From Eledone cirrhosa (Eukaryota), in NCBI GenBank assembly GCA_964016885.1, contig OZ024747.1:35650001-35714000 (forward strand): DNA of 64,000 bases, given 5' to 3'. This document shows positions 1,855-58,525 of the stretch, in pieces. Below the pieces are notes generated by a model. That model saw only the letters and a program-made list of their open reading frames with translations. It had not been told where the DNA came from and made no database searches. The position numbers were made by a program, and so were the translations under genes. Each line of letters starts with the position of its first letter. Positions within the stretch are counted from its first letter, which is position 1.

Positions 1855-2162
1855 ATTCTTAAACTCCGGGGCTGGAAATCATTCGGTTATTTTATATAGA
1901 ATATTAGTCTAACGACTCCATTTACACCATAAACTTGGTCTTATCTTTGAATGAAATTGTTTTTCTCGGCCCACATAACGACGTATTATCCTCGCTTTAT
2001 TTCCGTTCATTACCAGGGAACGTCTTCACGAACCAAAATATCGTCTTCTTGTTTTCAGTTGCAACGTTTCTCGAAATATTTAATTCTGCGTTCACAGATA
2101 GAATTTTTTAGTTTAAGAAGATCCCATTAATGTTGAAAGCAGCGATTCTTTACTTAAACTTT
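1855..2162 (+). mobile_element. Non-coding HHR family D copy (decayed core AAGAAGA at 2115-2121)
   Basis: Homologous to 43968-44157 and 56935-57395; helix I agttt/aaact retained. Confidence 0.7.
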
Positions 2163-3344: not shown

Positions 3345-6160
3345 CATTAACTGTCAGAGAAAACAACAACAAATTCTTGAATACATGTATTTACTGGCTA
3401 ATATCTTGCTTCGGAGACTGAATCATTTATGTGTACATTGATGATATAATTACCGATCTAGAAATCGACAAGTGTATAGTGAAAATAAAAGCATGATTCA
3501 GTACCCTCTAGTACGGCTAGACGTATTATAATTGAGTCCAATGGTAGTTACTGGACTAGGACTATTAGACCAAATAGTTATGACATAACTATGGTATCAA
3601 GTAACTCTGCCCAGGTTACTGACATTGTCGCTATTACATTAGCTTAATGAGGAATTCCCCATCTACAAGGCGGCTTATATTGAGACGATGCGCTATTTAC
3701 TGTAGATAATTCTAACACACGTAGAACAGAGATTCTTAAAAAGCAGTTACATAAATTCTTTAAAAACTTTGGCCTTTCTATCACAATTGAACCTAACTAT
3801 AAAATTATCAACTTTCTTGATAGTACTTTAGACCTTATTACAGAATTATACCGCTCTTATCATAAACCTGCTGAGATCCTAACTTATATTAATCGCCTCT
3901 CAAACCACCTCTTTCCGTTCTTAAATATATTGTAAAGTTCATTTCACACAGAATCTCTAGGCTCTCAGCAAATGAGAATATATTTAATGATATCGCCTGG
4001 TACTATAACGAGGCTCTTTCTAATTCAGGTCATACGGATAAAATGTATTACTTACATTGTGTTCCATCCACACAACAATTATGTAATAATAATTTAATCA
4101 CACAGAGTAGTATCTATAGCAAGAATACATTTAAAAATGCTAATAGAAAAAGCTTTCCTCCTTTTAATGGCCTGTTACCTACTCCTAGCAATAAATTCAG
4201 AGTTAGCTCTATTAGAAAACTTAACCATATGCCTCCTATTAATACTAAGAATACATCCACCACCCTAAAAATTTGAAAAATAATCTAAATTTATTTATAA
4301 ACGCTTCTAATAATCCTCGTGTCATGCACTGTAAGATATCTCATGATGTATCCTGGCTAAATCTATCCTTCTCACTTAATGTTTCTTCTAGCCTCCCTAG
4401 AATGTTTTCTATCCTGCATAATAATATCTCTCCTGACCACACATACTATAATGTTTTGAACAAAACTAACGTTAATATTTCTTTCTTTACCACCCCTAAC
4501 TCAGCCTATTATATTGCCTTTAGTATGCAGAAGGAATTAAATAAGCATATGGTATCCCTTCCTGATGATATACCTCTACCTATCAACCATCTACATACGA
4601 ATAATGTTAACTATAACACCAATCCTATTAACCCTTTAACCTCCTCACCGGTAACTTCTATCTCTGCACCTACGCCTATTTTCTCTACTACTGCTAACTG
4701 TAAATGTAACTGCAGATAGCCTAACAACTGCCCTCTGAATGGGCATTGCCATTTAATAATGTAGTGTATAGATGCACGGTTAAATCAGCAAATGACACAA
4801 AAACTGATATTGGAGCTACCGCTAACCCTTTCAAAACTCGTTTTAATTCTCATACACATTCAATGAGGAATAGTAGCTCAAAATCCTCAACTTCATGTAA
4901 ATGCATTTCAACTCTCCAATATGAAATACTCTCTAGTTTGGGATATTTTAGCCAAATCCTCCCCATACAAAGGACTTAAGAATCATTACGATCCCTGATT
5001 ATCTGAAGCTTATTTCATAACTTTATTTAAACATTGCCCAATTAATAACCGCAATGAGATTGTGTTTAACTACCATCACCGTTCGGCATACACATTCCCT
5101 AACAGGGCTTTTCATCCCACTTAGTTAATTTATTATCTATCCTCCAATATTTTATTATGTGCTCTCTACCCATGCATCATACCCCCATATATTAACTAGT
5201 TAGCCCCTATCTAATTTAAGTTGAACTTATCTCAGTTTTTAACTTATTCTCTCCCACCTTATATTAATACTAATTCCTTGTAGCTCCACTTTTTATATAT
5301 CTGCTTTAATGTGGAACCTTGACCCTTTACCTTACCATCCTATCTGTGGTTATGAACTCTTATTTTTTCATTTTTAATATAATCTTATATTATGCATTAT
5401 TATTTGCACATATCTTTTAACCTAGATATTCCCTATTTAATCTTCTTTAATTATTTTCAATTGTTTTTAGTGCACTCCAAGTAATTCCCATCAATATCAT
5501 TTATTCTTTTTTTAAAGTGAATTCTTATTGATTTGACCTTCATACCTCTATCCAATAATAATCAAATATATTTCTTATACCTCATCATTTGAATCTTTTA
5601 TTTATAATGTATATTTTTTTTTTTACCCCTTCTTATCTTATCATTTTTCTAAAATTATATGTAGTAAACATTTAACTATACATTACTACTAATTTATCTT
5701 CCTTGAATACTAATTATCCCCCTATGACAATCGCAACTCCGGTCACATTTTAATTCTTCTATCAGACCCCCTAATAGCCATGATCCTGGCCACCATAATG
5801 AATGTTCGCCATATATACACTGTTAACAAGCTGATAAATTCTGACCGAGAATTGCCTTTAATGTAGGATTTCTTCTTCAGTGGCATGTATTTATTTTAAA
5901 ATTAATATGTTTAAACCGTTTCTTTTTATTCTAAAGAGGGTATTCAAACATGCATTTATTTTCACTGTACGCTTATCGATTTCTAGATCGGTAATTAAAT
6001 CATAAATGTACAAATGAATTATTCAGTCTCCGAAACAAGTTGTCAGCCAGGAAATATTTGTAGTAAAACATTTGTTGTTTTCTATGAGATTTAATTCATG
6101 CTTTTTAACTTTTCTTATAATACTTTTCTAGGCATATTTCCTTCGAATTACTCGCTGTGT
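3345..6160 (+). mobile_element. Penelope-like element remnant (RT C-terminus + GIY-YIG, pLTR) with inverted 5' pLTR piece
   Basis: Broken frames read INFLD..YRSYHKP..YINR.SNH; WLN.SFS; CKCNCR...CPLNGHC; VVYRCTV..IGATANPFKTRFNSH. Segment 3345-3505 is an inverted copy of about 5935-6090. Confidence 0.85.
5927..6048 (+). ncRNA. Decayed hammerhead ribozyme in pLTR
   Basis: CTAAAGA (G5A) ggg...attcagtctcc GAAAC aagtt GTC; the inverted copy supplies actgaat, which pairs with attcagt. Confidence 0.45.
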
Positions 6161-12550: not shown

Positions 12551-12585
<35 letters not shown>

Positions 12586-12587
12586 AT

Positions 12588-13612
12588 AAAAGAAAACACA
12601 GGTAAGCATTAAGAGAAGGATTTTATCCAGGTATTTACGACCGTTTCATTGGTAAGTGCAACCTTATATTGCTATACTACAAATAGCAGCCACTCAATTA
12701 TAATTGTTGTTCACAATCCAAATTTTCAAAATAGTGAGTAAGTTAGTCTTGAAATAGTTCTTAATATATAGAGAAAAACATTTTTTGGAATTGTATTTAC
12801 TAGTATAAACCCTCTAGTTGTATCTAAACCCTTTTAATTACCCACAAAAAACCAATACCTATATCCCTCCCTTCTCCTTCATTCCTTTTCTATTTCTTCG
12901 TTTTCTCCCTTCCCTCCCCTTTTTGGCTATATTTTCTTTTCTTTCTTCTCCCAACTTTGCTTTTGTTTTTGTCATTATTATCTTTATCTTTATTTTGTAT
13001 ATATATATTTATCTCTTTATATCTCCACCCCTCTTTCTCTCTCTCTCTATCCATCCCCCCCACTATGATCAATTTAATTTTCTTTAACTCACTACATTCT
13101 CCGACATGAAGTCTACACATCAAAACTGATCAAGGAATCCTTCCATCTCTACCCCCCATCACAGTTTGTCACTATACTTCCTAACTCTCCCCCCTTCCTC
13201 TCTCTCTCTATACTATTCCGTTTGTCTCCTCACCTTCTAAATCCTCTCTCTCTATACTAGTAAATACAATTCCCAAAAAATGTTTTTCTCTATATATTAA
13301 GAACTATTTCAAGGATAACTTACTCACTATTTTGAAAATTTGGACTGTGAACAACTATTATAATTGAGTGGCTGCTATATGCAGTATAGCAATATAAGCT
13401 TGCACTTACCAATGAAACGGTCGTAAATACATGGATAAAATCCTTCACTTAATGCTTACCTGTGTTTTCTCTTTTTTACTTTATACTCCAAGATTGAACG
13501 GAATTCTTACAAACTTTTGGAGTTACCCCTAACCGTACGTTGAAACCATCCATGAAACTGGCTTTCTTAACCACGAACTGGATCACAATAAGCAATTTTC
13601 TGTTTCCCTAAC
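12588..13612 (+). mobile_element. Non-coding pLTR-type insertion with inverted 5' copy and U3-A8 HHR
   Basis: 12590-12807 is an inverted copy of 13253-13470. HHR 13328-13429: tatt TTGAAAA t ttgg...ccaa t GAAACG gt CGTA aata. Shares gagt.acccct.accgtacgt with the pLTR at about 32765. Confidence 0.75.
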
Positions 13613-17389: not shown

Positions 17390-18580
17390 TCACATAGGGA
17401 TATACAAAAAGAAGGAGGAACGTGTATGCGTATGAGATAGTACACGGGAGAAGTATGAGATATACACATCGGCCTGTATACGGAAAATATATGTGTTACA
17501 AAATGGAATACGTGGAGAGTATGGAATCTCTATTGAAAAGATACACATGCATGGGGTGCGTGTACCGGCCATACTGGAGTATTACACTGTGGTTGAGGTA
17601 TATTATCCTATAGGTGTAATGCATTTAACTGAAAGTCAGTGGAATCCGGGTCAACCTGTCCCGGCTCATGCGATGTTCTTGCCTATGGTGACGTACAGAG
17701 ACGGTATTGCATCCTATGTTATTACGGTTTACCCCACGGGGCATATATAGTCATCGGGGTATGGTGTCTGATCCCTTGAATCCGTTTCACTGGTCTGGTC
17801 GGCGTACGCTCCCCCGCATGCATTCAGCCTGGATTTCCCGGTGTATTCCATGTGGAGAGTGTGCACCTTCTCTGGTGCCTGCACGTCATGATTATTTCCG
17901 ATTTCAGGTTGACCGTATCATCCTTCAGTCTGACTATGTCCATGGCCTCGTAAAGGCATAGCCTACACTTTCTATTACCAGCCGAGAATGCATTCGCGTG
18001 CCGAACGATACTCCAGTCAAGGGCATACGGCGTGCCTTTGTCTTTCAAGTCGCATACCAGGTCCGCCAACCTAGTAGAGTGCCCCTGACTCCAGTCCTTG
18101 AAAGAGTTCGTGTGGTTATACATCCGCAATTTAAAGGTTGTGGATGTTGCGCCGATATAGGTGCGCTTTATATTGTGCGTTCTAACCACACATTTATATA
18201 CCAGGCCGTTCGTCAGGCATCATCCCTGCAAGAGGCACTGCGTGTCTGCTCTGCAGTTGCACGTTCTGTAGTTATGTTGTTCATTTCGGACGCCTGGCCA
18301 TTGATCTGCTAGGGCCCTCTCCCGATTCTCAGGGTGTTGTTCCGCTGATACGGTGGTCTCCTCTCCGCCAACCTTTCCCACCCGGTGTTGGATTGTATCG
18401 TCTTCCGCGGCGAGGCGGCCGCCGCGAGGGCTGGGTTGTGGTTGGAAGACCGATCCGCGAGGGACCCTCCGTGCTATGATGGACGGTCATTAAGCCGCTG
18501 CGATTGACGATCGAGGTTCCCCATCTTCGCCGCGTTAGTTTTGGCCATGTAGTCGGCCATGTTAGGTGCTGTGGAGAAGA
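17390..18580 (-). mobile_element. PLE remnant: long linker + GIY-YIG endonuclease + 3' region
   Basis: CNCRADTQCLLQG*CLTNGLVYKCVV...TYIGATSTTFKLRMYNHTNSF...KCRLCLYEA...NLKSEIIMTCRH. Confidence 0.85.
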
Positions 18581-30787: not shown

Positions 30788-32387
30788 CTTAAAGTAGTAC
30801 ACCTTCTAGACGTAACTCTTAATTTAAATACCGGACTGATACGACCCTTCCACAACATAAATGAGAAGCTTACCTATATCAATCTTAACTCAAACCACCC
30901 ACTTTCCATGATCAAATCGGTTTTCCGTAGTATTTCTCTTAGAATCTCTCGCCTATCGTCTGAATGAGATTTTCTGTGAACATGCCGAATACTATAATAA
31001 TCCATTAAGGAATGCCGACCACTTGGATACAATAGAATACATTGATAAGAATCTCCATAACACACATAGCTCTACACGAAATCAAAGAATACGTAACCGG
31101 GGTACATAAATACAAGCGCACACACAAGACATACTAATAATAGAAAAGCATCACCAAATAAATCACGTTGTTGAAAGTATATGTGGTATAATCCCATTTT
31201 TAATGCTTCGATTAGTATAAAACTATCTCTTTCATTCTTTAAGTTAATCAACAAGCATTTCCCTAGTTCCCATAAATACAGTAAAATTCTGAACTCTAAG
31301 ACTATTAAGCTATCATACTCCACTACACAAAACCTTGAAGTATACATTAAAAAAAACTTAACTTAAAGCAATTAATCAACGCTACAAAACAAAATATTTT
31401 AATAACAGATGTGCATAACGTAGTATCGGCCTCCCAACCAGTAAATGGGAGACGGGTATTACACAACCCACATGTACTGTTATCCCAACCTATCCATGGA
31501 ATACCTGCTACCCACAATAAAAACTGTAACTGCCACCTATCTGAAAGATGTCGATTGAAGAATAAATGTCTAAAGTCCAACATCGTTTATCAATGCACTG
31601 TTGAATTGAACGACCTGAAATGGTATTACATCGGGTCTACCACTACCTTCATTAAATTTCGCTGGTATCGTCATCGATTCTCAATTAAACATCATAATCA
31701 CCGTTTTGTGACCACGCTCGCCAACAAGACCTGGCAACTCCGTGAACGCAACCAACAGTTCACCGTGAAATGGTATATACTTTCCAGCGCTAGTGCATAT
31801 CGGAGTGGATTGAAGTACTGCAGGTTATGTAACCTTGAACTCTTTTACATCTTAAAATCCAAAAATAAATTACTAAATGACAGAATCGAACGATCATTAT
31901 ACTGCAACCTCAAACAGAAGGCTAAATTCTCTCACTATTAAATAACTTAACATTCGAACCCGTAACTATAACACTGCTTTCTCGTTAACTACTTTCTCTC
32001 AATAACAACTTCTTAACTGTATCCCCCACACTACAAAACAATACCCGGCTTATCACTATAAATGGATACTTAAGTGCAATTTGTAGCCTACAACTATGAA
32101 CTCAATATACACCTATCCCACAGCTTTCGTCTGCCACTCTCTATCTCTATCTATTCCTCTCTCTCCATCACCCCTCTCTCTCTCTCTCTATCTATCTCTC
32201 GCCCTCGATCCACCTCCCTCCCCTCCACATCTATGAACCTGCCCTTTGTGACAATAAATAATTCCAACCTTAACTATCAACGCATCGCTTAAGGTTGTCG
32301 CTTTAAGAGTAACCAGTATAATAAAACCCTACCACAACATTTTGATTAAGATATCTACAAACCACTCTGTCCCATTTCTCCAGCCCC

Positions 32388-39603: not shown

Positions 39604-41138
<1,535 letters not shown>

Positions 41139-43490: not shown

Positions 43491-43763
43491 AATGAAATAG
43501 TATGATAGAATATTAAATTCTAAGTGTTAATTGAACAAGTACTTTCATGCTTTCGCAATCTTCAGGTTCATGATATGTGGTGACAGTCGAGTTTGCAATT
43601 TTCAACTGTAATGAGATGGGTAAATTTACTACCTTTTATACATTTTATACAGAGAAAAGTGGCTCCAGAATGCAAAGCCCTGTAGACACACACACACACA
43701 CACATATATATATCTATATATCTATATATATCTATATATATATATCTATATCTATATATATCT

Positions 43764-43824
<61 letters not shown>

Positions 43825-43830
<6 letters not shown>

Positions 43831-44157
43831 TAACAGATTAAAGTTTAATCAAAGAATCGCTACTTTCACCCTTAACGGACCCCTTCTGAAACTAACGAAG
43901 TCAATCTGTGAACGCAGAAGTGAATATTTCAAAAAAAGTTGCAACCGGAGGAATAAAGGAACACGATACTTTTTTCCCGTTCTTTACCAGGGAACGTTTC
44001 CACGAACCAAAGTATCGTCTTCCTGTCTTCCTCCGGGTGCAACGTTTTTTTAAATATTCACTTCTGCATTCACATATTGACTTTGTTAGTTTCAGAAGAT
44101 CCCGTTAAGGGTGAAAGCACCGATTCTTTGCTTAAACTTTAATCTGTTATTTTATAT
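43825..44157. mobile_element. Family D inverted-repeat insertion with CAGAAGA-core HHRs
   Basis: HHR(+) 44088-44138: agttt CAGAAGA t ccc-gttaa-ggg t GAAAGCA ccgattctt TGCTT aaact. Decayed inverted copy 43842-43893. Confidence 0.8.
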
Positions 44158-45157
44158 TTGTTCCACGGTTTGTTCTACGGTTCTTATATATTTGATATAT
44201 ATTTATCCTTATCGAGCACTCTTTGGATTTTAGTCTTCAAATGTATTATTATTACTATATATATATATATGTATATATATGTATGTATGTATACAGACAC
44301 ACGCACGCACGCACACACACACACACACACACACATACACACACAAACACACACACACACACACATATATATATCTATATATTTATATATATCTATATAT
44401 ATATATATATTTATACTAAAACAGAGAGACAGACAGAGGGTGACAATGTTTGCTGAAATCTAGCGGTCAATAAAAGAAAAATAGGCCATTATCTTTATGA
44501 GATCAACTATAAAGATAAATATCGTTAAGTTTAATTACCTTGCATTCTATATTTATGTTTTCTATTACATTTCATCGCTTCCACTAAAGCTATGCATCGT
44601 TAACAGTAATTAAGTATAACTTGTAGCAGTTACATGTTTTAATCAAATTAGATAATTTTGAACACTGAATTGGGCGATTTAAGCATTAATCACTACGCCT
44701 ATCGCATAAGAACGACAGAAAAATTTATCGGCATTCGTAACTTATATTATGTTAAGCTAATTCATTGTAAACGATCACGTGTTTTCTAGATATAGCGGAC
44801 AATAAGACCTTTAAGAGGTCGTATATATAATTTCCATTAACATTGTACTTATTAACATTAGTTCATACAATATTAGGAAAAAATATTACATAGAATCTTG
44901 TAATTTGAATGTTGAATACAAATTAAATTTCCTGATGTTAAATGAAACTATTTAACAATTATTCTCGAGAAATATATATTAAATTTCCGACAGAAATATA
45001 ATAAATTAAATAGATTTGACTGGTTGGATTATGAAATTAATCGTTTTAATAATACATAATAAACGTTAGGTGATATTTTGTTGGAGATTTCGATAACATT
45101 TTCTTTGGATGCTCACATTAAGAGAAGACATTACATTCAAGTAATAGAAGAATATTT

Positions 45158-55601: not shown

Positions 55602-55602
<1 letters not shown>

Positions 55603-56400
55603 GCATATTTTCAACGAACATTCCACATATTACAATGACGTTCTTGCTAGGAGTGGATTTGTCGATAAGGTAGCATATACAGAGTACGAGAATTGACCTA
55701 GAAGAGATACATCCTGACGCATTATATGGTATAACTCACCATATAATATAGAGGTGGCCATACCATTAGCTAAGATCTTTCTATCTTTTATTACGAAGCA
55801 TTTTTCCCCCTACACATAAATATAGTAACATTTTTAATAGAAATACTATTAAAACTTCTTACTCTATGACTCCTAACCTTACACATAACATCACAGCTTC
55901 AAATTTAGCTAAACTACCTAGCCATAGGAACACGTGCAACCCTGTAGTTAGTACTAACGGTAATTGTAGGAATCGGGTTGATTGCCCCCTATACGGGAAA
56001 TGCCTCTCTAGTAACATTGTCTACAAATGTAATGTTGAAACACCCACGTCCCGTAGGGCCTAAATAGGGTTAACCGCCAATAGATTCAAGCAGCGTCTTT
56101 ACATGCATACCCATTCTTTTCGTTACCTTTTAAGAAGGAATATAACGTAATTTTCAGCTTATATCTGGAGTCTAAAAGACAACCACACCGAATATAAATT
56201 ACAGTGGGAGATCCTGGCTAGAGCTAGATCGTATAACGGAAATAAAAGACCATGTGACCTCTGCGCCGCTGAGGCCCTGGAAATACTCTACGCCACAGAC
56301 CACATCTTAAACAAAAATCTGAGGCAATTTCGGCTTGCAAACAAAAATTGCACAAAACTTTCCTGTATTACAGCCCCACATTAAACCCTAACGGATAGTA
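55602..56400 (+). mobile_element. PLE remnant, thumb + GIY-YIG
   Basis: IIWYNSPY, KHFSP.HKYSNIFNRNTIKTSYS, NCRNRVDCPLYGKCLSSNIVYKC, *IGLTANRFKQR, CDLCAAE. Confidence 0.88.
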
Positions 56401-56934
56401 CGATCTATACGCGGATATTTTACGTCTTGATGTGGTAGCTAAGTATATGTTATGTTTATACCATTACTTATTTGCATAGGTAAGTATATATTACCTGTAT
56501 GTTTTGTGAAGGTACGTATACTTTCTTGTACGCATATTTGATTGTATATGTTATGGCGTATATTTTATATATTCTGGTACATACGCTTTTGGTTATGTGT
56601 ATACGTGAATTTTGTGTCGGTGTGAGTATGCAGGTTCGTACGTATGTAGGGTGTGTGTATATGTGCACTTCGTGTTTTGGCTGACGTACGTCTGCGAACA
56701 TTTGTGTATTTACATGTAGGTATGTGTGTGCGCTTGTTATATACGTATTTATTTATTTATATACGTTTATTTAATTATTTGTATACACGAACACACACAC
56801 ACACATTTTTATACGTGCGTGTATTTGTATACCTATGGCGAGTGTTTTCGCGTATGCTTGTTAATGTACGTATATGGATGCGTGTATGTATTTATTTAAT
56901 TTCAATTACCCATGTATTTTATTTACATTATTCT

Positions 56935-57395
56935 TAACTCTAAAGCGGAAAATCATTCGGTTTCCTAGTTAGAATTTTAGTCTACGACTTCAGTTATAAC
57001 ATTTACGTGGTTTTGTCTTTGCGTGCAATTGTACTCCACGGTCCACATATGACGTATTATCTTCGTTTTTTCCGATCATAATTGGAGAACGTCTCTATGA
57101 ACCACCTAAGAGAATATTAGTCTACGACTTCTGTTATACCATAAACGTGGTTCTGTCTTTGCGTGTAATTGTTTTTCGCCGCTCCAAATAATCACGTTTT
57201 ATATTCGTTTTTTCCCGTTCTTTGCCAGGGAACGTTTCCACGAACCAAAGTATCGTCTTCCTGTCTTCCACCGGTTGCAACGTTTTTTGAAAAATTCACT
57301 TCTGCGTTCACAGATTGACTTTGTTAGTTTCAGAAGATCCCGCTAAGGGTGAAAGCCGCGATTCTTCGCTTAAACATTAATCTGTAATTTTAATA
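56935..57395 (+). mobile_element. Family D copy with internal partial duplication and CAGAAGA HHR (57326-57375)
   Basis: agaat.ttagtctacgacttc occurs at about 56971 and 57110; agttt CAGAAGA t ccc-gctaa-ggg t GAAAGC...GCTT aaac. Confidence 0.8.
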
Positions 57396-58449
57396 AATAT
57401 ATATATGTGTATGTATATATATATATATAAAATAATATTAAACACGGCACTACATAACGTAGTAGTTTCAGTGGTGTTGGAAAATCACATGCTTTATGTT
57501 TATTCAAATAAAAATAATATCCCCAAACAATATCACGGAGAAAATAGGCTGTCATGAAAAACGTATTCGAAGAATTTGACAATAACTACAAGAAATATAA
57601 GTTACTATTTGGCTGATAAACGCAACACAGTAATCATGAGACAAAAAGTAAACAAAATTCTTTCATCTACTAAAAAACAATACAATGCATGCTGACTAAC
57701 ACTAACGTTATCATTCATTGAAAATATTTTTTTTTTATGTATTATTACGTTCTTCAGGAGACAAACGGTTGTTTTCCATTTCTCAAAACCATAAATTGAA
57801 ATGTTCAAAAGAACGAATACGAAGGAAAACACTATATATTCCACCATGGATATTGCAACATATATTATTGTAAAAACATGAATATGAGGCATGCGGCTTT
57901 AACAATGTAACATAACATGTTTACTATACATATTGAACAAATAAAAAAGAACATAATGTATATAGATATATATTAATATCTATCTAATGCAGTTTCTGTT
58001 TCCTGTTTATTACAATACAACCTGCAGAAAAAAATGACTAAATACAATATACAAATATATATTATCAAACATTTGAATATTTACACGCGGAAATTTCTTT
58101 CTGGCAGGCGGTATGTAATATCCATTTGCACTGCAACATCTGCATATGAATTTCATCGCCTAACGACTTGATGTAAAGAAGCCAAATCGTCTATATTATT
58201 TGCTAACAAAAAGAGTTAATTATAAATGTCATTCTTCCAAATATATTGAATACTTAATGAAATATTATGACCATATTATATAGCTCCCATGTAAGGCGGT
58301 TATGTACATCGCCGGTTCATAGATATTATTTAAATATATATGTATATATATATATAGTAATAATAATAAATTTGAAGACTAAAATGCAGAGAGGGCTCGA
58401 TAAGGATAAATATATATCAGATATAAAAGAACCGTAGAGCACATATTTA

Positions 58450-58525
58450 TTAAAATAACAAATTAAAGTTTAAGCAAAGAATCCGTGCTTTCACCCTTAA
58501 CGGGATCTTCTGAAACTTTAATCTG

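What the first reader, a model, noticed from the sequence alone, without database searches (positions are those of the whole stretch)
44088..44138. Family D: hammerhead fold with a fixed non-canonical CAGAAGA core (U4A)
Seen: agttt CAGAAGA t ccc/ggg t GAAAGCA-9-nt loop-TGCTT aaact. A4 is present in all five copies (2115, 43882, 44093, 57331, 58506). Helix I has 5 bp and helix III has 3-4 bp with a real loop, so unlike the other families it could fold as a monomer. Inference: a natural core variant retained by a mobile non-coding family.
Basis: partly seen in the sequence, partly recalled or inferred. Interest (0 to 1): 0.72.

Follow-up and report, generated by a model that had tools for sequence, protein, structure and literature searches.

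The report
Retrotransposon hammerhead with altered core base
More than 17,000 copies of a protein-coding jumping gene in this animal genome carry a hammerhead RNA motif with an A where the textbook core has a U, and related families change the same position, so it is likely a weakened self-cutting RNA that standard searches miss, though cutting is untested.

Summary
The motif is real and A4 is the family state: 17,572 exact genomic matches carry A, 178 another base. The family is not non-coding. The motif ends an autonomous Penelope-like retrotransposon (RT plus GIY-YIG, Hydra-clade motifs). Copies with ~710-aa frames sit between two A4 hammerheads, and window copy 57331 ends a 1.8-kb coding fragment. 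Published Hydra hammerheads share the short helix II, the U·U closure and often U17, but all 26 listed rows have U4. Position 4 looks relaxed in this lineage. The related family in organism K reads mostly C, partly U; its other changes fall mostly in loops or keep pairs (P=0.02). Two other hammerhead families here carry C4. Against activity: CUGA mutants cut poorly in print, the hammerhead is not the lowest-energy fold, a 189-copy chimeric subfamily spread with helix II broken, and copy ends show no trace of the cut. No RNA data were available. Verdict: new variant of a known kind; slow or protein-assisted cutting about 55% likely.

The parts
44072..44147 (+). Type I hammerhead motif, extended: distal helix 44072-80/44139-47, 7-nt bulge 44081-87, helix I 44088-92/44134-38, helix II 44101-03/44109-11 closed by U44100·U44112, helix III 44116-19/44129-32
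   Evidence: Sequence; pairing model mapped from L054
44093..44099 (+). Core C3-A9 with non-canonical A4 at 44094
44133..44134 (+). Predicted cleavage site after U17 (triplet CUU); untested
   Evidence: Hammerhead numbering
43970..44147 (+). 5'-truncated 3' end (pseudo-LTR) of the Penelope-like element, 93% identical to L054
   Evidence: blastn
44148..44258 (+). 'Tail': start of the element's 5' UTR, ending at the second preferred end (about +111 from the cut)
43826..43972 (-). Inverted 5'-truncated copy with a degenerate hammerhead (core 43888-43882, A4 kept, A9G)
43704..43825 (.). (TA)n-rich target microsatellite, left (right side 44256-44288)
55602..57385 (+). 1.8-kb 5'-truncated copy of the autonomous element: broken thumb/linker/GIY-YIG coding fragment (55803-56395, 87% aa identity), 3' UTR, A4 hammerhead (core 57331-57337)
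   Evidence: blastn and in-frame C-terminal tblastn
58358..58517 (-). Short copy: hammerhead (core 58512-58506, A4) plus tail, joined to a small inverted piece
1898..2162 (+). Copy of chimeric subfamily S3: A4 kept, C3A, helix II broken

Best explanation
This is the hammerhead motif in the pseudo-LTR of an autonomous Hydra-clade Penelope-like retrotransposon, with A fixed at core position 4; it likely still cuts, but slowly or with help from the element's own protein. Shown: each full unit runs hammerhead, ~155-nt 5' UTR, one RT + GIY-YIG frame, ~900-nt 3' UTR, hammerhead, (TA)n. Insertions are 5'-truncated, often inverted, and end 29 or about 111 nt past the predicted cut. Inferred: the protein nicks (TA)n and starts reverse transcription internally at these two points on RNA that is uncut (or rejoined) at the hammerhead, so a fast ribozyme is not needed and may be a cost. 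Inferred: the fold and the other core bases stay constrained while position 4 is relaxed (A here; C, U and A in organism K; C in two other families), giving an attenuated ribozyme that trims only part of the read-through transcripts. A4 also adds a predicted competing helix that hides the core.
For: Element anatomy: L054. In 26 of 30 loci picked by protein alone, a sense hammerhead lies downstream and all 26 have A4. Frames of 709-714 aa with all seven scored motifs lie between two A4 hammerheads in L268, L269 and L271. Clade: RWR, DKT, CxCX5C, CxxC..E and CxH motifs and a (TA)n target match the Hydra definition. Architecture: 14 of 26 published Hydra rows have the same U·U closure and 10 of 26 have U17 (my count). 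Constraint: subfamilies S1 and S2 differ at many upstream sites but have identical majority sequence over helix I to helix I. In run X14 (organism K), 10 of 76 model positions vary at 5% or more; 8 are in the bulge, loops or N7 or keep a pair (G·U), and 2 violate the model (position 4 and a 6% change in helix I). P=0.02 by simulation. Position 4 there: C 21,583 and U 3,822 of depth 27,063. Other families: 93 of 100 listed copies have C4, with A-U/G-C covariation in helix II (552 matches); 35 of 100 listed have C4 (1,314 matches). Precedent: a natural U4C lowers activity in vitro but permits viroid infectivity, and U10.1·U11.1 is a natural tolerated mismatch (PMC3088659 passages). A PLE hammerhead cut only with its protein, and reverse transcription started at two internal sites that explain the tail (PMC11167929 parts 1-2 of 4).
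Against: All single mutants of the CUGA turn had low activity in a pairwise scan of one hammerhead (PMC9901934 passages). The model fold is -13.0 against an MFE of -15.1 kcal/mol and is not favoured in 171-nt context. A4 raises the core-hiding helix to probability 0.32, against 0-0.08 in natural non-A4 copies; helix I stays at 0.07 or below in all eight copies folded, whatever base 4 is. Subfamily S3 (189 exact matches; 4 of 100 anchored copies) spread with helix II broken; adding its sites weakens the test to P=0.06. There is no genomic footprint of cutting: 0 of 30 ORF-start copies begin at the cut, and junctions at the cut number 51 against 56 at a control site 7 nt away. No two-sided compensatory change was seen inside this family. 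In PAc, hammerhead mutants did not affect insertion in vitro. The X14 proportions rest on about a tenth of the depth seen 30 nt downstream, so they cover only the contigs that laid there.
Confidence: 0.55

Rival explanations
1. The ribozyme is catalytically dead, but its fold is kept as an RNA structure that the element's RT/endonuclease binds to position the two internal start sites.
For: The helices are conserved, copy ends cluster at +29 and +111 beyond the motif, there is no footprint of cutting, and catalysis was dispensable for insertion in PAc.
Against: The unpaired catalytic bases (G5, A6, G8, A9, G12-A14) show no change at 5% or more in X14 while N7 does. S3 spread with helix II broken, and its S3b branch also lost the 3' arm of the distal helix, so the whole fold is not needed for mobilisation.
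Confidence: 0.28
2. The motif is a decayed hammerhead that hitch-hiked in a young, very successful family: one founder with U4A was copied tens of thousands of times and nothing selects on it now.
For: Copies are only about 3-4% from their subfamily majority, so fixation alone says little. Naiad PLEs reach high copy numbers without canonical hammerheads (PMC8557442 passages). S3.
Against: Changes across S1/S2 and organism K avoid the core and helices (P=0.02). Non-U bases recur at this one position in at least three families, one with covarying stems.
Confidence: 0.13
3. The motif is a fully active monomeric hammerhead in which tertiary contacts between the bulge and loop 2 make U4 unnecessary.
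For: It has an extended helix I with a bulge and a non-palindromic helix III. Tertiary contacts are proposed to offset core variants.
Against: It has three sub-optimal features together (A4, U·U closure, CUU site), unfavourable predicted folding, and nearly all copies extend through the uncut site (43 of 45).
Confidence: 0.04

Closest known systems
Hydra clade of C-terminal EN+ Penelope-like elements and their hammerheads (Craig et al. 2021, PMC8557442; passages, section 11, and supplement parts 1-2 including File S2 read)
   Same: Single RT + GIY-YIG frame; RW[K/R], DKT, CxCX5C, CxxC and CxH motifs; (TA)n target; sense hammerhead near the 3' end; 3-4-bp helix II closed by U·U; U17 common; inverted 5'-truncated copies and tail.
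   Different: All 26 Hydra rows have U4; this family has A4. Their helix III is short and palindromic with a loop of 1-3 nt; here it has 5 bp and a 7-nt non-palindromic loop. The unit is about 3.25 kb (published: generally under 3 kb). The hammerhead differs from that of Hydra-1_Obim.
PLE minimal hammerheads (Cervera and de la Pena 2014, PMC4209133; parts 1-2 of 4 read, supplement searched)
   Same: Type I hammerhead in pLTRs, often as single or inverted truncated copies; low activity in vitro.
   Different: Their consensus is CUGANGAH with G10.1-C11.1 and a dimer-type helix III; the core variant described is U3-A8. No A4 core appeared in the 5 supplement passages returned.
Natural U4C hammerhead of a viroid and the CYGANGA descriptor (as cited in PMC3088659, passages; PMC13481778, passages)
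   Same: Departure at position 4 with the rest of the core kept.
   Different: Those have a pyrimidine; here a purine is fixed in more than 17,000 chromosomal copies and lies outside the CYGANGA descriptor.
PAc (Poseidon element of Anolis; Frangieh et al. 2024, PMC11167929; parts 1-2 of 4 read)
   Same: Two preferred 3' ends separated by a tail, downstream of the hammerhead; no reads or ends at the cut.
   Different: Different clade. Its core follows the C3/G8 consensus and it was shown to cut with protein; nothing has been assayed here.

Membership tests
Hammerhead ribozyme, type I (canonical consensus) | C3, G5, A6, G8, A9, G12, A13, A14, A15.1-U16.1, H17 | tested here: met
   no change at 5% or more at these sites in X14
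Hammerhead ribozyme, type I (canonical consensus) | U (or C) at position 4 | tested here: not met
   A in 17,572 of 17,750 matches; hence filed as a variant, not a canonical member
Hammerhead ribozyme, type I (canonical consensus) | Three helices around the core | tested here: inconclusive
   All can pair and natural changes mostly respect them (P=0.02-0.06), but the fold is not the MFE and no two-sided covariation was seen in this family
Hammerhead ribozyme, type I (canonical consensus) | Paired 10.1-11.1 (usually G-C) | tested here: not met
   U·U; a known natural variant and usual in Hydra elements
Hammerhead ribozyme, type I (canonical consensus) | Site-specific self-cleavage after H17 | not testable with these tools
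   Needs an assay; genomic footprint tests were negative
Hammerhead ribozyme, type I (canonical consensus) | Match to an Rfam hammerhead model at gathering score | tested here: not met
   0 hits in the window for any family, including the window's U4 hammerhead motifs
Penelope-like element, EN+ | [quoted passage not shown] | tested here: met
   YRDD and YIG motifs in ~710-aa frames; 567 homologues at E<=1e-20, many with PF26215/PF28514; homologue P0095 passes PF01541. No Pfam hit for the element's own fragments
Penelope-like element, EN+ | Partial tandem (pLTR), inverted truncated copies, optional tail | tested here: met
Hydra clade | RWK-like motif, DKT, CxCX5C linker, CxxC and CxH around the catalytic E/N | tested here: met
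   All present in L268, L269, L271, L273 (definition)
Hydra clade | [quoted passage not shown] | tested here: met
   One cysteine only, by reading the translation
Hydra clade | N-terminal GxKF/Y motif not conserved | tested here: inconclusive
   A GFKTY stretch follows the RWR motif; not aligned to references
Hydra clade | Placement in the RT tree | not tested
   No reference PLE proteins were on hand as tool sequences
Neptune clade | CX2-5CxxC linker plus CCHH motif | tested here: not met
   The linker is CxCX5C and CCHH is absent
Non-LTR retrozyme | Non-coding tandem repeats of a few hundred bases, each with a hammerhead | tested here: not met
   Hammerheads are about 3.25 kb apart around an ORF

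The most novel reading that the evidence does not exclude
Hydra-clade Penelope elements of this animal lineage use hammerheads in which position 4 is free (A, C or U). The A4 form is a working, deliberately slow ribozyme, held off by a helix that A4 itself creates and switched on by the element's protein. Tens of thousands of genomic ribozymes would then be invisible to CUGANGA and CYGANGA searches.
Probability: 0.3. Interest if true: 0.72.

Novelty: new variant of a known kind. Interest (0 to 1): 0.5.

Why it matters
U4 is treated as one of the near-invariant hammerhead bases, and genome searches require U or Y there. A purine fixed in more than 17,000 copies, with C4 or mixed states in sister families, gives a natural series (A, C, U on near-identical scaffolds). 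That series can test how much the core tolerates, and it bears on an open question: whether Penelope-like elements need their ribozyme to cut at all. If A4 is dead, this large family is a clean case of a canonical-type PLE thriving without cleavage.

Tried and rejected
Rfam: 0 hits. Pfam and PDB on the element's ORF fragments: nothing useful. The Neptune assignment, my first reading, was rejected on motifs. A U4 subfamily was suspected after and rejected: 7 of 9 U4 loci examined have the U at a 5' junction (two are arms of one locus) and 2 are point mutants. An organism-K-like subfamily in this genome was not found: 81 loop variants, 80 with A4. A closer sister family was not found: best hits to a piece of P0001 were 60-68% identical, and 28 of the 30 loci taken hold this family's hammerhead. 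The 67% 'sister' in L013/L125 reads as a decayed copy of the same family. The first tblastn query was out of frame by one base, so only the blastn and C-terminal results are used. The mapping reference lacked a few bases just after the motif, so only columns up to the end of helix I are used. Expression: no RNA holder listed. Runs X6-X11 show A4 where covered, but several are at low depth and may be trace DNA; X19 gave no contig. I give these no weight. A second junction control, 4 nt before the cut, was not obtained, so the junction comparison rests on one control site. Not held: Lünse et al. 2016/17 on PLE hammerhead variants and Ambros and Flores 1998; either could describe position-4 variants. 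The supplements of PMC9901934 were listed but not read, so I have no number for U4A. The supplements of PMC3088659 were not opened.

Full report
Observation. A4 is in all five window copies, but only three keep the whole CAGAAGA core: 2115 has C3A and 43882 has A9G. The copies at 43882 and 44093 are the two arms of one inverted insertion of about 430 bases between TA-rich microsatellites. The window lies in G000, a 3.0-Gb assembly; that it is an animal is inferred from its repeat content.

Is A4 the family state? Yes. The exact 31-base motif with A has 17,572 matches and with any other base 178; the reversed control has 0. G, U and C all occur among the 178. Of 9 U4 loci examined, 7 have the U right at a 5' junction and 2 are point changes in intact copies. 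With anchors outside the core, 100 of the 100 listed copies (of 16,340) have A4, read by eye.

What carries it. Pairs of motifs a few kb apart flank a coding frame. L054 runs: truncated 3' end, hammerhead, about 155 bases of 5' UTR, a frame from base 2124 with one stop at 4047, about 900 bases of 3' UTR, hammerhead, (TA)n. In 30 loci picked by protein alone, 26 have a sense hammerhead downstream within the fetched DNA, all with A4. Three loci hold frames of 709-714 aa between two A4 hammerheads. In the window itself, 55602-57385 is a 1.8-kb truncated copy, 90% identical, with a broken linker/endonuclease fragment ahead of the 57331 hammerhead. The protein has 567 homologues at E<=1e-20 among 7,995 scored candidates, and one homologue passes Pfam GIY-YIG. 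Its motifs (RWR, DKT, YRDD, CxCX5C, YIG, CxxC..E, CxH, no CCHH) and the (TA)n target fit the Hydra clade of Penelope-like elements as defined in PMC8557442 section 11. No tree was built. The family is therefore coding; most copies are just truncated ends.

Is it a hammerhead by descent? File S2 of PMC8557442 lists 26 Hydra rows. By my count all have U4, 14 have the same U·U closure of a short helix II, and 10 cut after U. The motif here has the same position, strand and design, so homology is secure and U is the likely ancestral base. It differs in A4 and in a longer, non-palindromic helix III.

Is the fold still constrained? Subfamilies S1 (94 copies sampled) and S2 (15) differ at many upstream sites and in the bulge, but not from helix I to helix I (the S2 sample was enriched for non-A4 loci). 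Run X14 (organism K, 2,043 contigs laid, most 80-95% alike) has 10 variable sites at 5% or more among the 76 model positions. Six are in the bulge, N7, loop 2 or loop III, and two turn a pair into G·U. One minor change (6%) breaks helix I, and one is position 4, read as C at depth 21,583 and U at 3,822 of 27,063. Two or fewer violations among 10 random changes occur with P=0.02; with the S3 sites added it is 4 of 13, P=0.06. The threshold and model are mine and sites are not independent events, so this is moderate support. Depth at position 4 is about a tenth of that 30 bases downstream, so the proportions describe only part of K's copies.

Position 4 in other families. A scan of the 151 sequences held at that point (594 kb) found C4 cores in several other repeats. 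One family has 552 matches, with 93 C, 5 U, 1 A and 1 G among 100 listed, and an A-U/G-C swap in helix II. Another has 1,314 matches, with 35 C and 65 U among 100 listed; one copy of it follows a PLE endonuclease frame (L033). So position 4 is loosened more than once in this genome. A4 is the extreme case.

Evidence against activity. In a pairwise scan of one hammerhead, all CUGA-turn mutants other than the C3/G8 swap had low activity (PMC9901934 passages). The model fold is 2.1 kcal/mol above the minimum, and helix I pairs with probability 0.07. A4 extends a helix between UUUCA and UGAAA that hides the core: probability 0.32 in two S1 A4 copies and 0.14 in one S2 A4 copy, against 0-0.08 in five natural non-A4 copies. 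Folding z-scores are unremarkable for the finding's own copy. Subfamily S3, with 189 exact matches and a 5' part from another repeat, spread with two of three helix II pairs broken. Copy ends show no sign of the cut: 0 of 30 ORF-start copies begin there, junctions at the cut number 51 against 56 at a control site, and 43 of 45 loci picked without a 3' anchor run at least 22 bases past it, mostly to +29 or +111.

Mechanism. The two preferred ends and the tail match PAc, where reverse transcription starts at two internal sites, the hammerhead cuts only with the protein, and hammerhead mutants still insert in vitro (PMC11167929). I infer the same here: the template is uncut or rejoined RNA, so selection on speed is weak or negative, while the remaining core and helices are still held. 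A natural U4C that is weak in vitro yet supports a viroid, and a tolerated U10.1·U11.1, are precedents (PMC3088659 passages). I put 0.55 on slow or protein-assisted cutting, 0.28 on a dead fold kept for protein binding, 0.13 on plain hitch-hiking and 0.04 on full activity. Element identity, A4 fixation, copy ends and variation patterns are shown; everything about catalysis is inferred.

Novelty. Searches for hammerhead with U4A gave 0 papers, with U4C one, and for degenerate core strings one relevant paper, which uses CYGANGA (20 of 28 hits listed). Searches showed no title or abstract on a natural A4 core. The most relevant survey, Lünse et al., was not held, so absence from print is not established. 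I also read part 1 of 5 of bioRxiv 10.64898/2026.07.22.740005 and passages of PMC6765202, PMC3376415, PMC11014351 and PMC7151607; none of what I saw reports A4. Earlier notes of this scan show no look-alike sequence but agree on Hydra-clade elements in this genome. Verdict: a real, new variant of a known kind, of moderate interest until cleavage is tested.

Noticed in passing
L007:154-200, L139, L157-L162: Hammerhead family with C4 as its majority state (552 matches; 93 of 100 listed) and covarying helix II.
   Followed up: partly
L033:5013-5075, L083, L151-L156: PLE hammerhead family with a long helix II and mixed C4/U4 (1,314 matches; 35 of 100 listed C).
   Followed up: partly
window:1380-2300 and L100-L124: Chimeric subfamily S3: 5' part from another repeat joined to this element's 3' end, helix II broken. 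A branch (S3b) has a new CT-rich 3' extension in place of the distal helix arm.
   Followed up: partly
L054:1996-2015 and 2078-2102 (window 44163-44182 for the first): Both preferred 3' ends (+29, +111) are followed by a similar short motif, TTG(G)CTC...CGGTT, seen by eye. This agrees with earlier notes on twin hairpins at RT start sites.
   Followed up: no
window:4294-5097 (+), 17872-18261 (-), 31522-31959 (+): Fragments of other PLE endonuclease frames, 22-40% identical to this family.
   Followed up: no
window:126, 51851 (+); 43565, 42248 (-); 39494 (+): Other hammerhead motifs with U4, some with the same mismatch closing helix II and one with a U3-A8 core.
   Followed up: partly
window:39304-39603, 39716-40112, 40224-41082, 12576-13485: Long near-perfect inverted repeats next to (TA)n, the shape of PLE inverted insertions.
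   Followed up: no
L198, L212, L214: Three independent insertions share the same fold-back junction exactly at the predicted cut; overall junction counts there are not above the control.
   Followed up: partly
window:45865-46641: 202-bp CA-rich minisatellite, 3.9 copies, 93% matches.
   Followed up: no
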